A stretch of DNA of 6,501 nucleotides from the IMG/VR virus record IMGVR_UViG_2648501400_000015, one strand, 5' to 3'. Positions 1 to 6,501 of this stretch are shown here, one piece after another. How positions within the stretch are numbered: position 1 is the first letter of the stretch; each line of letters starts with the position of its first letter. The position numbers and the translations under genes are program-made. The notes below the pieces were generated by a model. The model did not search any database and was not told the DNA's origin. It saw only the letters and a list, made by a program, of their open reading frames with translations. Source of the stretch: a virus (lineage: Duplodnaviria; Heunggongvirae; Uroviricota; Caudoviricetes).

Positions 1-4
1 AAGA

Positions 5-238
5 ATGCTGCATCTGTTCAGCGGCAAACCGATCCCCGACAACCGGGAAAACATCACTATTCGTCTGGATGATCACATTCAGTCTGTTCAGGGTAAAGAG
101 AGCTATGAAGATGAGATGTTCAGCATCAGATACTTTAAGAAGGGCTCCGCGCACATCACGTTCAGAAAACCGGAACTGGTTGATCGGCTAAATGACATCA
201 TTGCGAAGCATTATCCGGGGCAACTATCAGCCATCTGA
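5..238 (+). CDS. hypothetical protein, possibly only the C-terminal part (ORF may continue upstream of the window)
   Basis: Open frame 5..238 with stop TGA at 236-238; the ATG at 5-7 is only one codon from the window edge, so the true start is unknown. No motif recognised. A rho-independent terminator hairpin lies 60 nt downstream. Confidence 0.4.
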   Translation: MLHLFSGKPIPDNRENITIRLDDHIQSVQGKESYEDEMFSIRYFKKGSAHITFRKPELVDRLNDIIAKHYPGQLSAI

Positions 239-247
239 GTCAGATGG
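231..247. repeat. 17-bp palindrome CCATCTGA-g-TCAGATGG overlapping the stop codon of the 5..238 ORF
   Basis: Read directly from the sequence (8-bp arms, 1-bp centre). Function unknown; could be a protein-binding site or a small hairpin. Confidence 0.5.
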
Positions 248-256
248 AGAAAAAGC

Positions 257-280
257 TTACCTGACCCATTACCTGACCCA
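257..280. repeat. perfect tandem direct repeat, 2 x 12 bp (TTACCTGACCCA)
   Basis: TTACCTGACCCA at 257-268 and again at 269-280, read directly. Lies between the left ORF and the terminator downstream of the tRNA. Function unknown. Confidence 0.6.
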
Positions 281-297
281 ATTCAAAGGCAAAAGAA

Positions 298-329
298 AAA
301 GGGTTAGCTGGTTTATTAGCTAACCCTTT
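298..329. terminator. bidirectional rho-independent terminator
   Basis: Stem AAAGGGTTAGCT (298-309), loop GGTTTATT, stem AGCTAACCCTTT (318-329). T-rich tract follows on the plus strand (TTGTTGT) and on the minus strand (TTTTTCTTTTG). It sits just 3' of the minus-strand tRNA and 3' of the plus-strand ORF 5..238. Confidence 0.6.
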
Positions 330-337
330 GTTGTATA

Positions 338-413
338 TGGTGGCCCCTGCTGGACTTGAACCAGCGACCAAGCGATTATGAGTCGCTCGCTCTCACCACT
401 GAGCTAAAGGGCC
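338..413 (-). tRNA. tRNA-Ile (anticodon CAU, lysidine type, AUA decoder); nearly identical to E. coli ileX/ileY as I recall them, positioned like phage-borne ileZ
   Basis: Minus-strand sequence GGCCCTTTAGCTCAGTGGTGAGAGCGAGCGACTCATAATCGCTTGGTCGCTGGTTCAAGTCCAGCAGGGGCCACCA folds as a cloverleaf: 7-bp acceptor stem, D-arm, anticodon loop CUCAUAA (anticodon CAU), T-arm GGTTCAAGTCC, encoded CCA. A tRNA-Met identity cannot be excluded from the anticodon alone. Confidence 0.85.
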
Positions 414-518
414 GGGCGCAGGATAATAACGTTACGAAATCAATGTTGCAAGCATACAAAAATCACCCTTATCTCCTCCACCAGCGCATTCACCATGTCT
501 ATCCGAGATAAGTGGCAC

Positions 519-550
519 AAAAAAACCCGCTTGTGGGCGGGTTTTGTTTG
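519..550. terminator. rho-independent terminator (strongest on the minus strand); candidate tR'-like terminator of the short late transcript
   Basis: Stem AACCCGC (524-530), loop TTGTGG, stem GCGGGTT (537-543). On the minus strand the hairpin is followed by seven T; on the plus strand by TTTTGTTTGCTTTTG. Lies about 45-70 nt downstream of the predicted PR'-like start. Confidence 0.55.
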
Positions 551-576
551 CTTTTGCCATCACGTACAAAATCGGC

Positions 577-626
577 AAAATATCAGATTTGCATGAAATA
601 TATGCCTTTCAATCTACTTTTGCAAC
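577..626 (-). promoter_or_regulatory. PR'-like late promoter with promoter-proximal pause-like element (candidate qut region)
   Basis: Minus strand: -35 TTGCAA (625..620), 17-bp spacer, -10 TATATT (602..597), immediately after the Q-like stop codon (609-611). The initial transcribed region contains an extended -10-like TGaTATTTT (586..577), the kind of element that causes the sigma-dependent pause used for Q loading in lambdoid phages. Motif reading only. Confidence 0.4.
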
Positions 627-1298
627 ACTTTGCTTTGAAAATGCCGCCTTTTGTTTTGAACGTGTTCTCATTACAAATAATAAAGCCTCACTATCCAGTC
701 GGTGAAAAATGTGTTTCATTGCAACCCAGTGACGAGTAAATGTTTTGGACCAGTTTTTAGTTGTCACTCCCGCCAGTAATGCCAGCTCCTGATATTCATA
801 ACCTTCCCCACCAAAAAGTTCTGCTTTTACTGCCTGCGCCGCCAGCCAGATTAATTTTTTCAGGCGTTCCTGCGTTTTCCCAGCAATTTTTCTGGTACCG
901 GATTGAGTATTAAATTCATTCCACGCCCACTGTGTTATCGCGATCTGATATTCCCAACAAATACTCCCGCTGTAACACCACAACAACCAGGCTTTATGAT
1001 GTTCTTCAAGAGACAGAACAGCCCGCCGCCACGATGATGTCAAAAACTCAACCGGACTGACGAGAGGAATTGACGCCCCCTTCGCCAGCGATTGCTTTCC
1101 CGGGATTGGTGGATTATCCCGCGTTATCATTTTTCCAGTCACTTCATCGCGGTACCGGATTTTTTTACGCCTGTAACGCCCTGTATCAAACATGGCATTC
1201 TCCTGCCAGGCCTCAAGCTGCCCTTTTGTTGATCCACTCAAATCGGCGGTGGCAATCATGAGTTGCTCACGAACAAACTGTAAATACTGGTTATTCAT
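609..1298 (-). CDS. late-gene antitermination protein Q-like (229 aa)
   Basis: Complete ORF whose ATG overlaps the rusA stop (ATGA). Assignment rests on context: directly downstream of rusA, followed by a promoter overlapping its 3' end, a short-transcript terminator and a tRNA, as in lambdoid Q-PR'-tR'-tRNA modules. Not confirmed by alignment. Confidence 0.6.
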   Translation of the reverse strand: MNNQYLQFVREQLMIATADLSGSTKGQLEAWQENAMFDTGRYRRKKIRYRDEVTGKMITRDNPPIPGKQSLAKGASIPLVSPVEFLTSSWRRAVLSLEEHHKAWLLWCYSGSICWEYQIAITQWAWNEFNTQSGTRKIAGKTQERLKKLIWLAAQAVKAELFGGEGYEYQELALLAGVTTKNWSKTFTRHWVAMKHIFHRLDSEALLFVMRTRSKQKAAFSKQSVAKVD

Positions 1299-1654
1299 GC
1301 ATACTCCAGTTCTGTGATTTTTATCCCCAACCGCCCACCAGGAACAAGCTGACCGCGCACAATATTAATTTCATCAAACTGCTCGTCGTCTATGAGCAGC
1401 CCCGCATGCGTCAGTACATCCAGTGGTGCCTTCAGGATATTGTCCAGGTCACGACGGCGCTTATCCGGTGGCTCTGCAATAATTTCTATTGCCGGCCTTC
1501 CGGACAGGTTTAATTTCAGTTGCTGCTGGCGAACAATAAGCGCCACATCACGGCGATAACGCTCACCGACTTTTGATACAAAATATGTGCTGCCACGGCG
1601 TCGCCAGTAAGTGTTCACCGTCGGCGGGTAAGGTAAAACCAAATCTATGAGCAT
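1295..1654 (-). CDS. rusA: RusA-family Holliday junction resolvase (119 aa)
   Basis: Protein contains PDKRRRDLDNILKAPLDVLTHAGLLIDDEQ, matching the RusA acidic catalytic signature (RRRDLDN ... DD) and length of about 120 aa. SD AGAGGTGA lies 5 nt upstream of the ATG; stop overlaps the Q start. Confidence 0.85.
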   Translation of the reverse strand: MLIDLVLPYPPTVNTYWRRRGSTYFVSKVGERYRRDVALIVRQQQLKLNLSGRPAIEIIAEPPDKRRRDLDNILKAPLDVLTHAGLLIDDEQFDEINIVRGQLVPGGRLGIKITELEYA

Positions 1655-1666
1655 CAGTCACCTCTT

Positions 1667-2716
1667 TTACCCAAGCACGCCAGTTGCAAAGGCGTGATCA
1701 AGAAAACGAAAAATTAAATCAACCTGAGAACCATGCTTTTCTTCGAACGCCAGCGGATCCGCATGAAGCTCGTTGTGATGCTCCCGACACAGCGGTAGCG
1801 TGAAAATATCGTGAGATTTTGTCCCCATTCCGCCCTGACCATGACCAATCAGGTGATGGGGATCGTCGGCTGGCTTACCACAACACGCACACGGCTGTGT
1901 CTTCACCCAGCGTGTGTATTTCTCGTTAACCCAGCGGCGACGTTTAGGTCGTTTCATGAAAGATTCCGGAGACTCAGGATCAACGGCAATGCTGACCACC
2001 GTCTTTTCCTGTGGTGGGTTCTGTTGCTGGTGGGCGTGAGGCAGCGGCGCAAGATTTTTTGTGCGCTGTTTCAGTATGCTGGTGGCGGTCTGCTCTCCCG
2101 GTACGATGTCGCTTTCACGGTACATTGAGCGAATTTTTTCCGCACGCAACCCCAGCGAACGACGTAATACCGCTTCCGGTAGCGCGTCCGCCACCTGATT
2201 GCGGACCGCCCACCAGGATAATTCAGCCAGCGATAATTCCCGTTCCTGCGAGCCATTCATTGCATGGCGTATGACGTCAATCATCCATGCAGACAGGTTT
2301 TGGTGAGCAAGTTGCCCGAGTGATTCGGAGGTCTGGTCGCGCAGCTGGTTGTCGCAGTGCCAGCACAACACCATTGCGCCGGTACCATAACGGTGAATGA
2401 CGGTTTCACTGTGGTGATAATCACCGTGTGGCCACTGGCAGGATTTAACATGGCGCAGTAACCAGTCAGACAATGCGCCAGCGCCACCAGCAGCACGAAT
2501 CACTCGTTCGTCGCTGAAAAATGGCAGTAATGATTTATCCTCCGCCAGCGGCTGGCGAACGGCAGGAACGACCCCGGACGGCAGATTACGCATGCTTTTC
2601 GGTTCCGGCTCCACCAGTACCCGGGTATTGTGGAATACCGGCATGGATTCACGGCCCGGCTTAACGATCACCAGCCCGAGTTCCGGTACCAGAACAGGTC
2701 GAAGTAATACCCGCAC
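1667..2716 (-). CDS. DUF968/YdfU-like prophage protein with C-terminal HNH-type Cys/His motif (349 aa)
   Basis: Long ORF starting at GTG 2716, preceded by strong SD GGAGG with 4-nt spacing. C-terminal region PCACCGKPADDPHHLIGHG...LPLCREHHNELH has HNH/zinc-finger-like spacing of Cys and His. Position between the small protein and rusA matches ydfU in Qin-type prophages as I recall them. Confidence 0.6.
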   Translation of the reverse strand: MRVLLRPVLVPELGLVIVKPGRESMPVFHNTRVLVEPEPKSMRNLPSGVVPAVRQPLAEDKSLLPFFSDERVIRAAGGAGALSDWLLRHVKSCQWPHGDYHHSETVIHRYGTGAMVLCWHCDNQLRDQTSESLGQLAHQNLSAWMIDVIRHAMNGSQERELSLAELSWWAVRNQVADALPEAVLRRSLGLRAEKIRSMYRESDIVPGEQTATSILKQRTKNLAPLPHAHQQQNPPQEKTVVSIAVDPESPESFMKRPKRRRWVNEKYTRWVKTQPCACCGKPADDPHHLIGHGQGGMGTKSHDIFTLPLCREHHNELHADPLAFEEKHGSQVDLIFRFLDHAFATGVLG

Positions 2717-2717
2717 G

Positions 2718-2996
2718 TTACCTCCAGATGCGTTGCTGGAATGTGCGGGACGGACGCGGTGGTCGTTCGGAGTAAGGAAGCCTGACGGAGATTATCCAGT
2801 GACGATAATCGAGGCTGAGGGCTTTCTTAATCTCGTATCCGTGTCTGCGGTAGCACTGAATTAGCCACTCGGCCTGTTCTTCAGTGCATGGGGGATGCTG
2901 GAACCAGTCAGATTTGAAAGTGCGGGAACGCCGCCCGTGCCTGCTGGCAAAGACGGCAGAATCATCAGAATTGTGTAATTTGGTATCGTGCGCCAT
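2718..2996 (-). CDS. small prophage protein of unknown function (92 aa; positional equivalent of rem in Qin-like prophages)
   Basis: ORF ending 1 nt before the DUF968 GTG start; its stop TAA lies between the SD and start of the downstream gene. Start set at the first ATG (2996) downstream of the hok terminator; the RBS is weak, so the start is uncertain. Confidence 0.45.
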   Translation of the reverse strand: MAHDTKLHNSDDSAVFASRHGRRSRTFKSDWFQHPPCTEEQAEWLIQCYRRHGYEIKKALSLDYRHWIISVRLPYSERPPRPSRTFQQRIWR

Positions 2997-3065
2997 CGGT
3001 TGTCTCTGCTGGCGCAGCAGGTGCCAGTTGTTCAGGCTGGCGTGCGAATTGTAAACCAGAATGCC

Positions 3066-3095
3066 AGGAAAAAACAAAACCCGCCGAAGCGGGTT
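3066..3095 (-). terminator. rho-independent terminator at the 3' end of the hok mRNA
   Basis: Minus-strand stem AACCCGC, loop TTCG, stem GCGGGTT (3095..3078), followed by TTTGTTTTTTCC. Lies about 70 nt downstream of the hok stop. Confidence 0.6.
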
Positions 3096-3163
3096 AAGTG
3101 CGGGTGCGTTGAGGATGCCTGACACATCAGAGGTGGCGAGGGATTTCTCCCCCGCCTGGTCTC

Positions 3164-3319
3164 TTACTCCTCAGGTTCGTAAGCTGTGAAGACAGCGACC
3201 TCCGTCTGGCCGGTTCGGATTCGTACCTCGCAGAGGTCTTTCCTCGTTACCAGTGCCGTCACTATGACGGTTAAACAGATGACGATCAGGGCGATTAACA
3301 TCGCCTTTTGCTGCTTCAT
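3164..3319 (-). CDS. hokD: Hok/Gef-family type I toxin (51 aa), sequence as I recall HokD/RelF
   Basis: Translation MKQQKAMLIALIVICLTVIVTALVTRKDLCEVRIRTGQTEVAVFTAYEPEE: single transmembrane helix plus conserved RKDLCEV motif typical of Hok/Gef. SD AAGGAGAAG precedes the ATG at 3319. An in-frame upstream ATG at 3376 would give a 70-codon ORF. Confidence 0.9.
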   Translation of the reverse strand: MKQQKAMLIALIVICLTVIVTALVTRKDLCEVRIRTGQTEVAVFTAYEPEE

Positions 3320-3367
3320 AGCCTGCTTCTCCTTGCCTTTCGGCACGTAAGAGGCTAACCTACGTGT

Positions 3368-3440
3368 GTAGAGCATAGATATGGCCTCAGATTAATGTTA
3401 AGCGTCTTGCCGGACGCGTAATGTTAACTGGGGCTTTTCT
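3368..3440 (+). ncRNA. candidate Sok-like antisense RNA (approximate coordinates)
   Basis: Plus-strand promoter-like element inside the hok leader: TTGCCT (3333-3338), 17-bp spacer, TAACCT (3356-3361). A transcript from about 3368 would be antisense to the upstream ATG/SD region of the hok leader, as Sok is in plasmid R1 hok/sok. The 3' end is not defined. Confidence 0.3.
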
Positions 3441-3495
3441 CTATCTGCCTTTTGGTGTTCATGCCTGAGACAGATAGCCTCAAGCACCCGCAGTC

Positions 3496-3524
3496 ATTCT
3501 ACCCGTTTTAGATTTCTCAGCCAA
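3496..3524 (-). promoter_or_regulatory. predicted hok mRNA promoter
   Basis: Minus strand: -35 TTGGCT (3524..3519), 17-bp spacer, -10 TAGAAT (3501..3496). Predicted start near 3489 gives a 5' end GGGTGCTTGAGGCT..., resembling the hok mRNA 5' end of plasmid R1 as I recall it. Confidence 0.45.
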
Positions 3525-3665
3525 CTTTATGCTCACAACATATACAAATTTCCCGGTTAAAGCTCATCATGTTAGATAGTTTTTGCGTACGCACTATTTT
3601 TTTATGTAAACTGCGCAAAAAAGTTTAGCACCCTAAATTGTTAAGGGAAAATTAAGGAAGTGTTA

Positions 3666-4757
3666 ATGCTTGAGCAAACAGTAAAAAACATCAATTCACG
3701 CTTTGGCTGGCGCAACACCCGTAAGCTTCTTGGTTCATCACTGGGTGTAACGGCCCAAGGATTACCCCTTTTTATTGAACGTGTAAATAGTGTAGTTCAG
3801 CATAATCCCGACCTAAAAGACAGAATCGACGATTTCTGGAAAGGTTTAATTTTTAGCGGGAATCGATTACTTTCTATTTATAGAATCACCGATGAAGACG
3901 TAGCAAAATTACAAACAATTTTCACAAATCAGAAAAAGGACAATAGCCCCTTCTCAGAAAAATACCCAACTCCTTTATCCAGAGAGGAGCTGTTAGTTGC
4001 TGATACTGAGCTGCATTTTGCTGAACTACGTCAAGATATCATTCGTGATAAACAAATTGACACTGCTGTTTTTTTATCCAAAGCGTATTACACTGAAGTG
4101 ATAGAGCTTGACCCAACACATCTTAGCGATGCGGGTATGGAATTACGTGCTAATGGTGGAGAAATAAAATGCAAAACACGCCAAGTCACGCAATGCTTTA
4201 ATACCATCATGCTAATGCCTGCAGAAAAAATATTAATTCTTACGATTGATTTATCTATCCTTCCAAGAAGTGAATCACAGCCTCAACAATACCTTGTGGC
4301 TAAATTTATAAAAAAAGAAGCTGGCGTTATTTTAAACAATCCTCTTGAATTATTTGGTTCAATACAAGATCTTTACGAAAAAGTAGATGGCAGAATTTCT
4401 CATGTATCTTTTATCACCTCAGATGGCAATACAAGTTCTTTAAAACTCAAACCAAGTCAAAAGTGTTTGCGTCAAGATGTTTACCATCATAGTGGAGAGT
4501 CCGCAAGCCCAATATTGACAAAGTTTAAGTTGGGAAAAATTTGGGATTTACCACAAAGTTCTTCACATATTTTATCAGTAGAGTTAATATTACCAGGAAA
4601 AAGGACAATGCTTGATAATCCTAGAATTAGGTTGCATGAAGCAATTGCGAAGAACTGTAACAACATTGATTCGATTATATTTATTGTTGAAAAAATATTG
4701 GATTCTGTTAAGTCCTGTGAAGAGAAAAGAAGAGCGAGATCATCAGGCCATAAATGA
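3666..4757 (+). CDS. hypothetical protein, gene 1 of AT-rich three-gene operon (363 aa)
   Basis: ATG at 3666 preceded by SD AAGGAAG (3654-3660); the ORF track start at 3660 is a GTG placed too close to the SD. No Walker or other motif recognised. Stop TGA overlaps the next start (ATGA). Confidence 0.75.
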   Translation: MLEQTVKNINSRFGWRNTRKLLGSSLGVTAQGLPLFIERVNSVVQHNPDLKDRIDDFWKGLIFSGNRLLSIYRITDEDVAKLQTIFTNQKKDNSPFSEKYPTPLSREELLVADTELHFAELRQDIIRDKQIDTAVFLSKAYYTEVIELDPTHLSDAGMELRANGGEIKCKTRQVTQCFNTIMLMPAEKILILTIDLSILPRSESQPQQYLVAKFIKKEAGVILNNPLELFGSIQDLYEKVDGRISHVSFITSDGNTSSLKLKPSQKCLRQDVYHHSGESASPILTKFKLGKIWDLPQSSSHILSVELILPGKRTMLDNPRIRLHEAIAKNCNNIDSIIFIVEKILDSVKSCEEKRRARSSGHK

Positions 4758-5182
4758 AAAAGAGTATATATCACGACATTATCACGCAAATAGAGCAGGA
4801 TTTTAATGATCCTGTTCGCAGTGTGTGTCGTGATCTTTTTCTTTTTCTGGTTAGTAAAGATGCTAAAAATATCAATCACTTTACATACAAAACCCTTATC
4901 AATGGTTTAACCTATCTAACTGATACGAAAGATGACTATATCCTGCTAATAAAAGCAACTGATTATTTATCTAGCTATAAAGCACATCTATTGGATATGC
5001 ATTTTCAATACATTGATAATTTAACGGAAGAACCAATACCAGTTGAAGATGATCTTATTTCCTATGCTTTAGACACAGGAAGTTTTTACCATCCAGAAAC
5101 TGGCGAATTGGTTGATAATTTTAGCCAGTATCTTTATCCATACTTTACTCCTTCGAGTCTTTTGGAGAGTCTGCATGAGTGA
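4754..5182 (+). CDS. hypothetical protein, gene 2 of operon (142 aa, acidic C-terminal half)
   Basis: ATG 4754-4756 overlaps the gene 1 stop (4755-4757) with no independent strong SD, suggesting translational coupling. No motif recognised. Confidence 0.7.
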   Translation: MKKSIYHDIITQIEQDFNDPVRSVCRDLFLFLVSKDAKNINHFTYKTLINGLTYLTDTKDDYILLIKATDYLSSYKAHLLDMHFQYIDNLTEEPIPVEDDLISYALDTGSFYHPETGELVDNFSQYLYPYFTPSSLLESLHE

Positions 5183-5816
5183 TGTAAACATCTGTACTGC
5201 AGACCTTCAATCATTAATTAGAATGGATCCTGAATTTAGGGGAATGGTTCAAAGAAAATTAGCTGCAGACAAAAATATTTTTGTAAAGCAACTCTATGAA
5301 GATTTAGACGACGCTATTCAGAATTTAGAAAATGACAAACACTTCTATCAAGATGCTAAGTGGGGAGAGGACGAGCTAACAGCGTCGATCAAAAATTTCC
5401 TGAAAGGTAGGTTTTATGATGTTGAACATGATACTCAACATGGCGGTCACGTTGATTTATTAGTTAAACATCAATTCGGAAAATTCGAATGGATCGGTGA
5501 AGCAAAATTATGGAGAGGCCCCAAATCTATTCATAATGGCTGGATTCAGCTAACCGAACGTTACGGCACGGGTACGTCACGTGACGATCATGGAGGAATT
5601 CTAATTTATATAAAGTCTGACAAATCAGCAGTAAAATTCAATGAATGGAAAGAATTTTTCTCTACGACCGTTTCGGACGCAGAAATTGAAGCGGAAGGCT
5701 CTCCCCTCCGCTTTAAGAGTATCACAAAGCATCCAGCAACAGCGCTTCCATATCATGTAAGACACATGGGAGTATCCTTATACCATTACACTGGTAAAAA
5801 AACCGCTGACTCTTAA
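5175..5816 (+). CDS. hypothetical protein with PD-(D/E)xK-like motif, putative nuclease; gene 3 of operon (213 aa)
   Basis: Start chosen at ATG 5175 (MSDVNICTADL...), preceded by SD GGAGAG 5 nt upstream and overlapping the gene 2 stop by 8 nt. Motif GHVDLLV-x14-EWIGEAK (D94 ... E109-A-K111) fits the restriction-endonuclease-like core D...(D/E)xK after hydrophobic strands. Confidence 0.7.
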   Translation: MSDVNICTADLQSLIRMDPEFRGMVQRKLAADKNIFVKQLYEDLDDAIQNLENDKHFYQDAKWGEDELTASIKNFLKGRFYDVEHDTQHGGHVDLLVKHQFGKFEWIGEAKLWRGPKSIHNGWIQLTERYGTGTSRDDHGGILIYIKSDKSAVKFNEWKEFFSTTVSDAEIEAEGSPLRFKSITKHPATALPYHVRHMGVSLYHYTGKKTADS

Positions 5817-6334
5817 CTGGTAATTGCTATATATCCAGTCAAAAAACCTAAGGCTTTTTGCAATCTTTTACGAATTGTTCCATCTGAACATCCTTGTTGC
5901 TTTGCAATAGCACGAAGAGATAAACCAATCACGAAATGAGCAACAATTAACTCATATTCTTGTTGCTTATATCTTTCTAACCTAAGGATACTAATGTCAA
6001 TAATTCGCCCTTCATCATTGCTGCACTGACGACGTGATTTTTTACCATGAGGAACAACATTTTTATATTTATCAGCTATTTCCTGCCAATCAATAGAACT
6101 ATTACCAGCCACAACCCAAGCCCCCCAATCGTCTAAAATCTCACATATATCAACATTACTATCCATCTGTTTTTTATTTTCTATTTTGAAATAACCAAGC
6201 AGCATTCTAGCCATTGTTGTTATTTCTATACTTGTAACTGACTCATAAGCATGAGGAGAAACAATTCTCTCATCACTTAATGCCCAATCACTAAGGTTTG
6301 CTATTTCCAACAATCGTTCTTTAGTTATTCCCAT
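5813..6334 (-). CDS. hypothetical regulator with C-terminal sigma-70 region-4-like HTH (173 aa)
   Basis: ATG at 6334 preceded by SD GGAG with 6-nt spacing; the ORF track start at 6346 is GTG. C-terminal ELIVAHFVIGLSLRAIAKQQGCSDGTIRKRLQKAL matches the region-4/LuxR-type HTH pattern. AT-rich like the operon; convergent with gene 3 and overlapping it at the stop codons. Confidence 0.65.
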   Translation of the reverse strand: MGITKERLLEIANLSDWALSDERIVSPHAYESVTSIEITTMARMLLGYFKIENKKQMDSNVDICEILDDWGAWVVAGNSSIDWQEIADKYKNVVPHGKKSRRQCSNDEGRIIDISILRLERYKQQEYELIVAHFVIGLSLRAIAKQQGCSDGTIRKRLQKALGFLTGYIAITS

Positions 6335-6346
6335 TATTATCTCCAC

Positions 6347-6362
6347 CGCCCTTTCGGGCGGC
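6347..6362. other. GC-rich hairpin immediately upstream of the regulator gene RBS
   Basis: CCGCCC-TTTC-GGGCGG (perfect 6-bp GC stem, 4-nt loop) in an otherwise AT-rich stretch. No clear U-tract on either strand, so role is unclear (attenuator, processing site or island boundary). Confidence 0.3.
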
Positions 6363-6501
6363 CTCCTGATGATTTGAGGGTGCAGGAATCCCTCCGGTTA
6401 AGGATTTAATAAAAATCGTTTCTGATTTAAATCTTCAGTATTTAGTTGTTAGTCGGTTTATAGCCTTTATGCTTCGGCCTTATTTCTCAGCCATACACAA
6501 A

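What the first reader, a model, noticed from the sequence alone, without database searches (positions are those of the whole stretch)
3530..6362. AT-rich cargo island with a three-gene operon plus convergent regulator: candidate undescribed defence or toxin module
G+C drops from about 52% in the flanking phage genes to about 30-35% across roughly 3530-6350 (hand counts on 60-nt lines). The island holds three tightly overlapping plus-strand genes (363, 142, 213 aa) in which I recognise no known family, and a convergent HTH gene. It sits between the divergent hok promoter and the phage backbone, where Qin-type prophages carry relBE, a typical slot for anti-phage or addiction cargo. The last gene has a nuclease-like motif, fitting a sensor/adaptor plus nuclease-effector layout.
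Basis: partly seen in the sequence, partly recalled or inferred. Interest (0 to 1): 0.85.

Follow-up and report, generated by a model that had tools for sequence, protein, structure and literature searches.

The report
Uncharacterised three-gene nuclease cassette in prophage
A swappable cargo slot of an E. coli lambdoid prophage holds a conserved, unnamed three-gene cassette (an RdgC/RexA-fold DNA-binding protein, a small acidic protein and a restriction-enzyme-fold nuclease) that travels as a unit between many mobile elements and is most likely an undescribed anti-phage defence system, though nothing has been tested experimentally.

Summary
G+C is 36% across 3530-6362 against 51% to the left. 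Three translationally coupled + strand genes lie at 3666-4757 (A, 363 aa), 4754-5182 (B, 142 aa) and 5175-5816 (C, 213 aa). None matches Pfam, NCBIfam or a solved structure.

The convergent "HTH regulator" is a phage Q-family antiterminator that belongs to the conserved prophage backbone. The true cargo is about 3504-5831, between the hok/sok locus and the 3' end of that Q gene. Other E. coli prophages carry relBE or unrelated gene pairs in this slot.

The A-B-C trio was intact in all 12 further genomic contexts examined (one contig ends inside C): lambdoid, P2-like and Mu-like prophages, a Tn7-like element and integrase or recombinase islands. The A family has at least 501 representatives at 50% identity.

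The best reading is an undescribed mobile defence or exclusion system in which a DNA-binding sensor controls a nuclease effector. No publication was found. Function is inferred only.

The parts
3164..3489 (-). hokD toxin gene and hok/sok regulatory RNA region. This is the conserved left flank of the cargo slot and not part of the cassette.
   Evidence: Pfam HOK_GEF E 3e-23; Rfam sok RF01794 at 3314-3489, 117 bits. Homology to other prophages with different cargo ends at 3502/3503.
3504..3665 (+). Cargo-specific upstream region. It presumably holds the cassette's own promoter, a short TTTTGCG...CGCAAAA inverted repeat (about 3582-3621) and a Shine-Dalgarno AGGA 7 nt before the ATG at 3666.
   Evidence: Sequence read; left junction. 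No consensus sigma-70 site on the + strand passed the scan in this stretch, so the promoter is inferred, not shown.
3666..4757 (+). Gene A, 363 aa, basic (pI 8.8): RdgC/RexA/IML3/CHL4-fold protein, the proposed DNA-binding sensor. The most conserved motif (C267-P282, CLRxDxYHHGGExASP) lies in the only low-confidence loop of the model.
4754..5182 (+). Gene B, 142 aa, acidic (pI 4.6), conserved C25 and an HPxTG motif. No recognisable family. Proposed adaptor or inhibitor of the nuclease.
   Evidence: Alignments A4 and A6. No Pfam, PADLOC or PDB match. Always found between A and C.
5175..5816 (+). Gene C, 213 aa: PD-(D/E)xK restriction-endonuclease-fold nuclease with an N-terminal helical extension. 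Invariant residues are E65, H85, G91-H92-x-D94, E109-A-K111 and Q125. Proposed effector.
5813..6346 (-). Q-family antiterminator gene (PF06530) with an N-terminal extension. This is the conserved right flank; its stop codon overlaps that of C. It is backbone, not cargo.
   Evidence: Pfam Phage_antitermQ E 9e-32 and phrog_79. About 82% identical next to other cargo in L005 and L025, with homology resuming at 5832/5874. A PF06530 Q gene also abuts C in L002 and L020-L023.

Best explanation
Window 3504-5831 is a self-contained, horizontally mobile three-gene cassette carried as cargo in a variable slot of a lambdoid prophage. It most likely acts as an anti-phage or anti-mobile-element defence (exclusion) system. 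Inferred mechanism: A is a basic RdgC/RexA-fold protein that binds DNA, probably as a dimer that clamps or encircles it. It would recognise a DNA state created by an infecting phage, such as free ends or replication or recombination intermediates. B is a small acidic partner made in fixed ratio by translational coupling. It would link A to C or hold C inactive. C is a PD-(D/E)xK nuclease that, once licensed, cuts DNA and stops the invader or the infected cell. The cassette is transcribed from its own promoter, antisense to the prophage's lytic transcription, and its 3' end overlaps the Q gene. The prophage's own lytic transcription would therefore be expected to damp the cassette, as was hypothesised for the antisense-oriented Tai defence gene of phi80. 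Shown here: gene structure, conservation of the trio as a unit, its mobile contexts, the swappable slot, and the folds of A and C with the catalytic residues of C. Inferred: DNA sensing by A, the role of B, nuclease activity, the defence phenotype and the regulation.
For: The trio has the same order and sizes (A 351-390 aa, B 112-151 aa, C 193-269 aa) in 12 further genomic contexts, usually with overlapping or near-abutting genes. This holds even where A is only about 20% identical; one contig (L016) ends inside C. The contexts are cargo positions of mobile elements. They include the lambdoid Q-to-holin slot (L002, L020-23), the hokD-to-Q slot (window), a site next to the P2 GPA gene and an HNH protein resembling a type IV restriction enzyme (L003), and a Vibrio integrase island (L006). 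They also include a site next to Tn7-like TniQ/AAA_22 genes (L009), a site directly upstream of a Mu-like head module (L019), a Shewanella island flanked by a resolvase and a DUF6538 protein (L026), a Photobacterium island with VspR-like and helicase genes (L027) and a Yersinia prophage (L028). The slot in the window carries alternative cargo elsewhere: relBE, DUF6731 plus a partner, and a 309 + 182 aa pair. The junctions are sharp, at 3503 and 5832. The trio has lower G+C than the rest of its locus in 12 of 13 loci. It is rare and patchy: 14 + 12 of 5426 complete E. coli genomes for the two variants. Fold of A. The same set of structural relatives was reported for lambda RexA, the DNA-binding component of the Rex exclusion system (PMC11077077). 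Fold and invariant catalytic residues of C. The nuclease core of C is related to PADLOC defence candidate PDC-S54. All three proteins are soluble, with no strong hydrophobic segment in B or C.
Against: No experiment exists. No match to any validated defence system in PADLOC 2.0.0. A has no sequence-level link to RdgC or RexA: hhalign probability 0.2, and no Pfam or PDB profile hit. Its DNA binding is therefore inferred from a predicted fold alone. Phage RdgC-fold proteins are annotated as recombination proteins, not defence proteins. In the Mu-like locus the trio has the same orientation as the head genes. No promoter or terminator was identified. Neighbouring genes at most loci are not known defence genes.
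Confidence: 0.55

Rival explanations
1. A three-part toxin-antitoxin or addiction module. C is a nuclease toxin, acidic B is its antitoxin or immunity protein, and A is a regulator or chaperone. Its main role would be to stabilise the mobile element. Any phage defence would be secondary.
Against: A is the largest and most widely conserved component (at least 501 representatives), which is unusual for an accessory TA partner. No antitoxin-type HTH or RHH domain was found in A or B. This rival also overlaps heavily with the defence reading, because many TA modules act as defence systems.
Confidence: 0.15
2. A DNA-metabolism module that serves the carrier element itself. An RdgC-like modulator of RecA or recombination would work with a structure-specific nuclease in replication, recombination or processing of the element's own DNA, or in degrading host DNA.
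For: E. coli RdgC is a recombination-associated DNA-binding protein that inhibits RecA (PMC11077077). The closest viral structural matches are phage proteins annotated RdgC, recombination-associated or exonuclease. The window's nin-like region already holds recombination and repair genes (RusA, DUF968/HNH). The trio is co-oriented with phage genes in the Mu-like locus.
Against: In lambdoid and Yersinia prophages the trio is antisense to the flanking phage genes. It is replaced by unrelated cargo in near-identical prophages, so the phage does not need it. It also sits in islands that are not phages, such as next to Tn7-like genes or a resolvase. It is present in only about 0.5% of E. coli genomes.
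Confidence: 0.15
3. Cargo with a different role or none in this host: an anti-defence or counter-defence factor, a virulence-linked moron, or a gene set silenced by H-NS with no phenotype.
For: The DNA is AT-rich (36% G+C), which is typical of xenogeneically silenced DNA in E. coli (general knowledge). The same kinds of prophage slots also carry toxins and effectors. No promoter was found.
Against: All three full-length proteins are conserved across Enterobacterales, Vibrionales, Alteromonadales and more distant metagenomic lineages, with invariant catalytic residues. This argues for a selected enzymatic function. There are no secretion signals or membrane segments.
Confidence: 0.1

Closest known systems
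Lambda Rex exclusion system (RexA/RexB)
RdgC recombination-associated protein (E. coli; PF04381) and phage RdgC-like proteins
   Different: No Pfam RdgC match for A or for any of 62 family members. A has an extra N-terminal four-helix region. RdgC is a stand-alone housekeeping gene, whereas A is always coupled to B and a nuclease on mobile elements.
Type II restriction endonucleases of the BamHI/BglII/BstYI/OkrAI group, and defence nucleases with the same fold (NucC, HamA, McrC, Cap4, Can2)
   Same: C has the same alpha/beta core and an E...D...ExK catalytic constellation.
   Different: No methyltransferase, cyclase, helicase or GTPase partner is present. C has a distinctive invariant HDTQHGGH loop and an N-terminal helical extension. 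There is no sequence-level match to any solved nuclease.
PADLOC phage-defence candidate PDC-S54
   Same: 20 of 28 C-family members match its model over the nuclease core (C residues 88-150 against profile positions 295-353 of 410; best E 8e-9).
   Different: PDC-S54 is a single-gene candidate with a 410-position model, and only about 60 positions match. A and B have no counterpart in PADLOC.

Membership tests
Rex (RexAB) exclusion system | RexA-family protein recognisable by sequence | tested here: not met
Rex (RexAB) exclusion system | RexB-type polytopic membrane partner | tested here: not met
   No strong hydrophobic segment in B or C; maximum 19-residue Kyte-Doolittle score 0.57 and 0.16. 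The cassette holds only A, B and C.
RdgC family (PF04381) | Match to the Pfam RdgC model | tested here: not met
   No Pfam hit for A or for any of 62 diverse family members at E <= 0.001.
RdgC family (PF04381) | RdgC-type fold (base and centre domains) | tested here: met
RdgC family (PF04381) | Ring-shaped dimer that binds DNA non-specifically | not testable with these tools
   This needs multimer modelling or biochemistry.
PD-(D/E)xK nuclease superfamily | Restriction-endonuclease-like alpha/beta core | tested here: met
PD-(D/E)xK nuclease superfamily | Conserved acidic and lysine catalytic residues (D ... E-x-K) | tested here: met
   E65, D94, E109 and K111 are invariant in 28 homologues and in the C proteins of 10 divergent trios.
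Type II restriction-modification system | Cognate DNA methyltransferase next to the nuclease | tested here: not met
   No methyltransferase domain in A or B, or adjacent to the trio, in any locus examined.
Any defence system modelled in PADLOC-DB 2.0.0 | All components match the models of one system | tested here: not met
   A family: none. B family: none. C: only a partial match to the single-gene candidate PDC-S54.
Anti-phage defence system (generic) | Reduces phage plating or burst when expressed in a sensitive host | not testable with these tools
   This needs the cloning and phage-challenge experiment.
Toxin-antitoxin module | Toxin is growth-inhibitory alone and is neutralised by the cognate partner | not testable with these tools
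   There are only indirect hints: acidic B lies upstream of the nuclease and hok/sok is adjacent.

The most novel reading that the evidence does not exclude
RdgC-fold proteins form a general DNA-state sensor module of phage exclusion systems. In lambda Rex the sensor is coupled to a membrane channel. Here a much larger, unnamed family (at least 501 representatives) is coupled, through a small acidic subunit, to a restriction-fold nuclease. The trio would then be a new, widespread defence system whose trigger is a phage DNA structure rather than a sequence or a modification.
Probability: 0.3. Interest if true: 0.8.

Novelty: new variant of a known kind. Interest (0 to 1): 0.65.

Why it matters
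If the cassette is a defence system, it adds a widespread three-protein system that current annotation does not recognise. Every copy seen is labelled 'hypothetical protein', and no relative has a solved structure.

It would also link the RdgC/RexA fold to a nuclease output. How RexA senses infection has been an open question since the Rex phenotype was described. A soluble, nuclease-coupled relative would be an easier biochemical handle on what DNA state this fold recognises.

The locus also defines a prophage cargo slot with sharp junctions, running from hok/sok to the 3' end of the Q-family gene. At least four alternative cargos occupy it, two of them uncharacterised gene pairs that could be mined in the same way.

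Tried and rejected
- Sequence-profile searches of the A, B and C families against all PDB chains found nothing significant.
- hhalign of the A family against lambda RexA gave no signal.
- Pfam, NCBIfam and PADLOC on the window proteins and on 62, 28 and 14 family members gave nothing. The only exception was the partial PDC-S54 match of C.
- The weak Pfam hits of B (Stealth_CR2, Cas8b_C; E 0.05-0.09) were rejected as noise.
- The search for related loci with the wide C alignment failed because it had no conserved stretch. A narrower alignment gave only 3 loci among species-representative genomes.
- The AlphaFold-database fold library was not available.
- tblastn of A against 50,697 phage records gave only a weak partial hit in an Acinetobacter phage record. 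There was no match in plasmids.
- Literature searches found no description of this trio. They covered the RefSeq accessions, DUF6731, RdgC with defence terms, and the text and supplements of the DefensePredictor paper.
- Brenes & Laub 2025 (prophage defence screen) is not held in the library and could not be checked.
- The idea that the Q-like gene is the cassette's regulator was rejected, because it stays in place when the cargo changes.
- A restriction-modification reading was rejected because no methyltransferase is present.
Full report
**Origin and layout**

Window 338-6501 is 99.8% identical to a lambdoid prophage of E. coli O127:H6 E2348/69. The first 337 bases differ, so the window comes from a related strain.

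The phage backbone reads on the minus strand. In transcription order it holds:
- a Q-family antiterminator gene (6346..5813, PF06530)
- hokD with its sok RNA region (3489..3164)
- a small gene of unknown function
- DUF968/HNH (2716..1667)
- RusA (1654..1295)
- a second, unrelated Q antiterminator (1298..609, PF06323)
- a tRNA

This is the Qin-type arrangement ydfT-ydfU-rem-hokD of K-12, where relE and relB follow hokD.

**Check of the observation**

G+C is 0.363 over 3530-6362 against 0.507 over 1-3376.

Three + strand genes lie at 3666-4757 (A, 363 aa), 4754-5182 (B, 142 aa) and 5175-5816 (C, 213 aa). They overlap by 4 and 8 nt, and C's stop codon overlaps the stop codon of the convergent Q-family gene. 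Homologue alignments confirm both start codons. They show that RefSeq's shorter call for C drops 16 conserved residues.

- The low G+C continues through the Q-family gene to the end of the window.
- Comparison with prophages that carry other cargo places the real cargo junctions at 3503 and 5832/5874.

The Q-family gene is about 82% identical in those prophages. It is backbone, not a regulator that travels with the cassette.

**The slot**

Between hok/sok and the Q-family gene, other E. coli prophages carry different genes on the same strand as the trio here:
- a DUF6731 protein plus a 159-aa protein
- an overlapping 309 + 182 aa pair
- in K-12 Qin, relBE

None of the uncharacterised alternatives matches PADLOC. 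This is a cargo hotspot with conserved flanks.

**The three proteins**

None matches Pfam, NCBIfam or a PADLOC system. PHROGs places them in three families of unknown function.

*Protein A.*
- With a 25-sequence alignment, AlphaFold2 gives pLDDT 83.6 and pTM 0.81.
- This matches the relatives published for the RexA crystal structure: RdgC, IML3, CHL4, that epimerase and Cas2 (PMC11077077).
- Foldseek against viral models independently returns phage RdgC or recombination-associated proteins (E 3e-7 to 1e-4).
- There is no sequence-level link to RexA, RdgC or any solved structure.
- A is basic, with pI 8.8.
- Its most conserved motif, CLRxDxYHHGGExASP (267-282), falls in the only low-confidence loop of the model. 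That pattern is what one would expect of a partner or ligand interface.
- A profile search of 1.84 billion representative proteins finds 501 relatives (289 at E <= 1e-10). Nearly all are full length, at about 350 aa. None of the 62 sampled has a Pfam or PADLOC assignment.

*Protein C.*
- The model has pLDDT 91.5.
- E65, H85, G91-H92-x-D94, E109-A-K111 and Q125 are invariant across 28 homologues and across the C proteins of ten divergent trios.
- C is therefore a PD-(D/E)xK nuclease with an intact catalytic set.
- Twenty of 28 family members also match the nuclease core of the PADLOC single-gene defence candidate PDC-S54 (best E 8e-9).

*Protein B.*
- It is acidic (pI 4.6) and evolves fast.
- It keeps a C25 and an HPxTG motif.
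- It has no detectable family.

**The trio is one unit**

The same A-B-C order and sizes recur in 12 further genomic contexts, usually with overlapping or near-abutting genes (one short contig, L016, ends inside C). Seven were reached from C homologues and five from A homologues that are only about 20% identical to A.

| Locus | Context |
|---|---|
| L002, L020-23 | Lambdoid prophages of Enterobacter and E. coli, between the PF06530 Q gene and the holin; antisense, overlapping the Q gene's 3' end |
| L003 | Alteromonadaceae locus, beside the P2 GPA replication gene and an HNH protein resembling a type IV restriction enzyme |
| L006 | V. parahaemolyticus integrase island next to rpoD |
| L009 | Next to Tn7-like TniQ/AAA_22 genes, preceded by an HTH gene |
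| L019 | Directly upstream of a Mu-like head module |
| L026 | Shewanella island flanked by a resolvase and a DUF6538 protein |
| L027 | Photobacterium island with VspR-like and helicase genes |
| L028 | Yersinia prophage, antisense between a polyvalent protein and tail genes |
| L013, L014-15, L016, L017-18 | Short metagenomic contigs |

The trio has lower G+C than the rest of its locus in 12 of 13 loci. In E. coli the two variants occur in 14 and 12 of 5426 complete genomes, always labelled hypothetical. Neither occurs on plasmids.

**Interpretation**

Four features are the signature of accessory conflict systems carried by prophages and satellites:
- a three-gene unit kept intact over large distances
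- placement in cargo positions of many kinds of mobile element
- interchangeability with other cargo
- a patchy, rare distribution

Given a DNA-binding-fold protein and an intact restriction-fold nuclease, the most economical mechanism has three parts. A detects a DNA state produced by an invader. B couples or restrains. C cuts.

The antisense placement against lytic transcription, with 3' overlap of the Q gene, resembles the phi80 Tai arrangement. There the authors hypothesised that late transcription turns the defence gene off during the phage's own lytic cycle (PMC11364771). Here this is only an inference.

I put this reading at 0.55. The rivals are a three-part toxin-antitoxin or addiction module (0.15, and partly overlapping), a recombination or DNA-processing module for the element's own use (0.15), and other or silent cargo (0.1).

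**Comparison with what is known**

- It works most like Rex, in having a prophage-borne RdgC-fold DNA-binding protein. It also resembles nuclease-effector systems. It is a member of neither.
- It has no RexB-like membrane protein, no sequence match to RexA or RdgC, no methyltransferase, and no helicase, cyclase or NTPase partner.
- No paper in the searchable library describes it. One relevant paper could not be read, and newer DefenseFinder models could not be run. A recent naming therefore cannot be excluded.

**Verdict**

This is a real and well-delimited feature. I rate it a new variant of a known kind: a mobile nuclease-effector cassette with a sensor fold not previously reported in that role. 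Its function is still untested.

Noticed in passing
window 609-1298 (-) and 5813-6346 (-): The prophage carries two unrelated Q-type antiterminator genes. PF06323 lies next to the tRNA and late region, and PF06530 lies upstream in the nin-like region. The PF06530 copy has an N-terminal extension of about 65 aa (phrog_3323). In other prophages (L002, L020) a shorter PF06530 Q gene sits immediately upstream of the lysis genes and also abuts the trio. This suggests that Q plus trio may once have moved together by recombination.
   Followed up: partly
L005 3370-4779 and L025 2751-4215: Two other uncharacterised two-gene cargos occupy the same hokD-to-Q slot in other E. coli prophages: DUF6731 + 159 aa, and an overlapping 309 + 182 aa pair. 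Neither matches PADLOC, and no paper mentions DUF6731. Both are candidates for the same kind of study.
   Followed up: partly
window 4464-4511 (protein A residues 267-282): The most conserved sequence motif of protein A (CLRxDxYHHGGExASP) coincides with the only stretch of the AlphaFold model with pLDDT below 50. It may be an interaction or ligand-binding loop.
   Followed up: no
window 5427-5450 (protein C residues 85-92): An invariant His-rich loop, HDTQHGGH, lies immediately before the catalytic D94. The restriction enzymes that C resembles share only 8-14% identity with it, so this loop may be specific to the family. It could be an extra metal or ligand site.
   Followed up: no
window 338-413 (-): ARAGORN calls a tRNA with a CAU anticodon tRNA-Met. 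RefSeq annotates it as tRNA-Ile in E2348/69, presumably the lysidine-modified type. It lies downstream of the PF06323 Q gene, a usual place for phage tRNAs.
   Followed up: no
window 1-337: This stretch is not collinear with E2348/69, where a tRNA-Arg and an ISEc13 insertion lie at that position. The window therefore comes from a related strain. ORF 5-238 (77 aa) was not examined.
   Followed up: no
L027 11257-16808: In Photobacterium the trio sits beside a protein with VspR_N and VspR_C domains, a ResIII/DEAD helicase and an AAA_30/UvrD_C_2 helicase. This may be a defence-island-like neighbourhood.
   Followed up: no
L019 66-3348: In a high-G+C Mu-like prophage the trio lies directly upstream of the Mu-like protease/scaffold and major head genes, in the same orientation as them. 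It is 16 G+C points below its surroundings. This is an unusual position for cargo.
   Followed up: no
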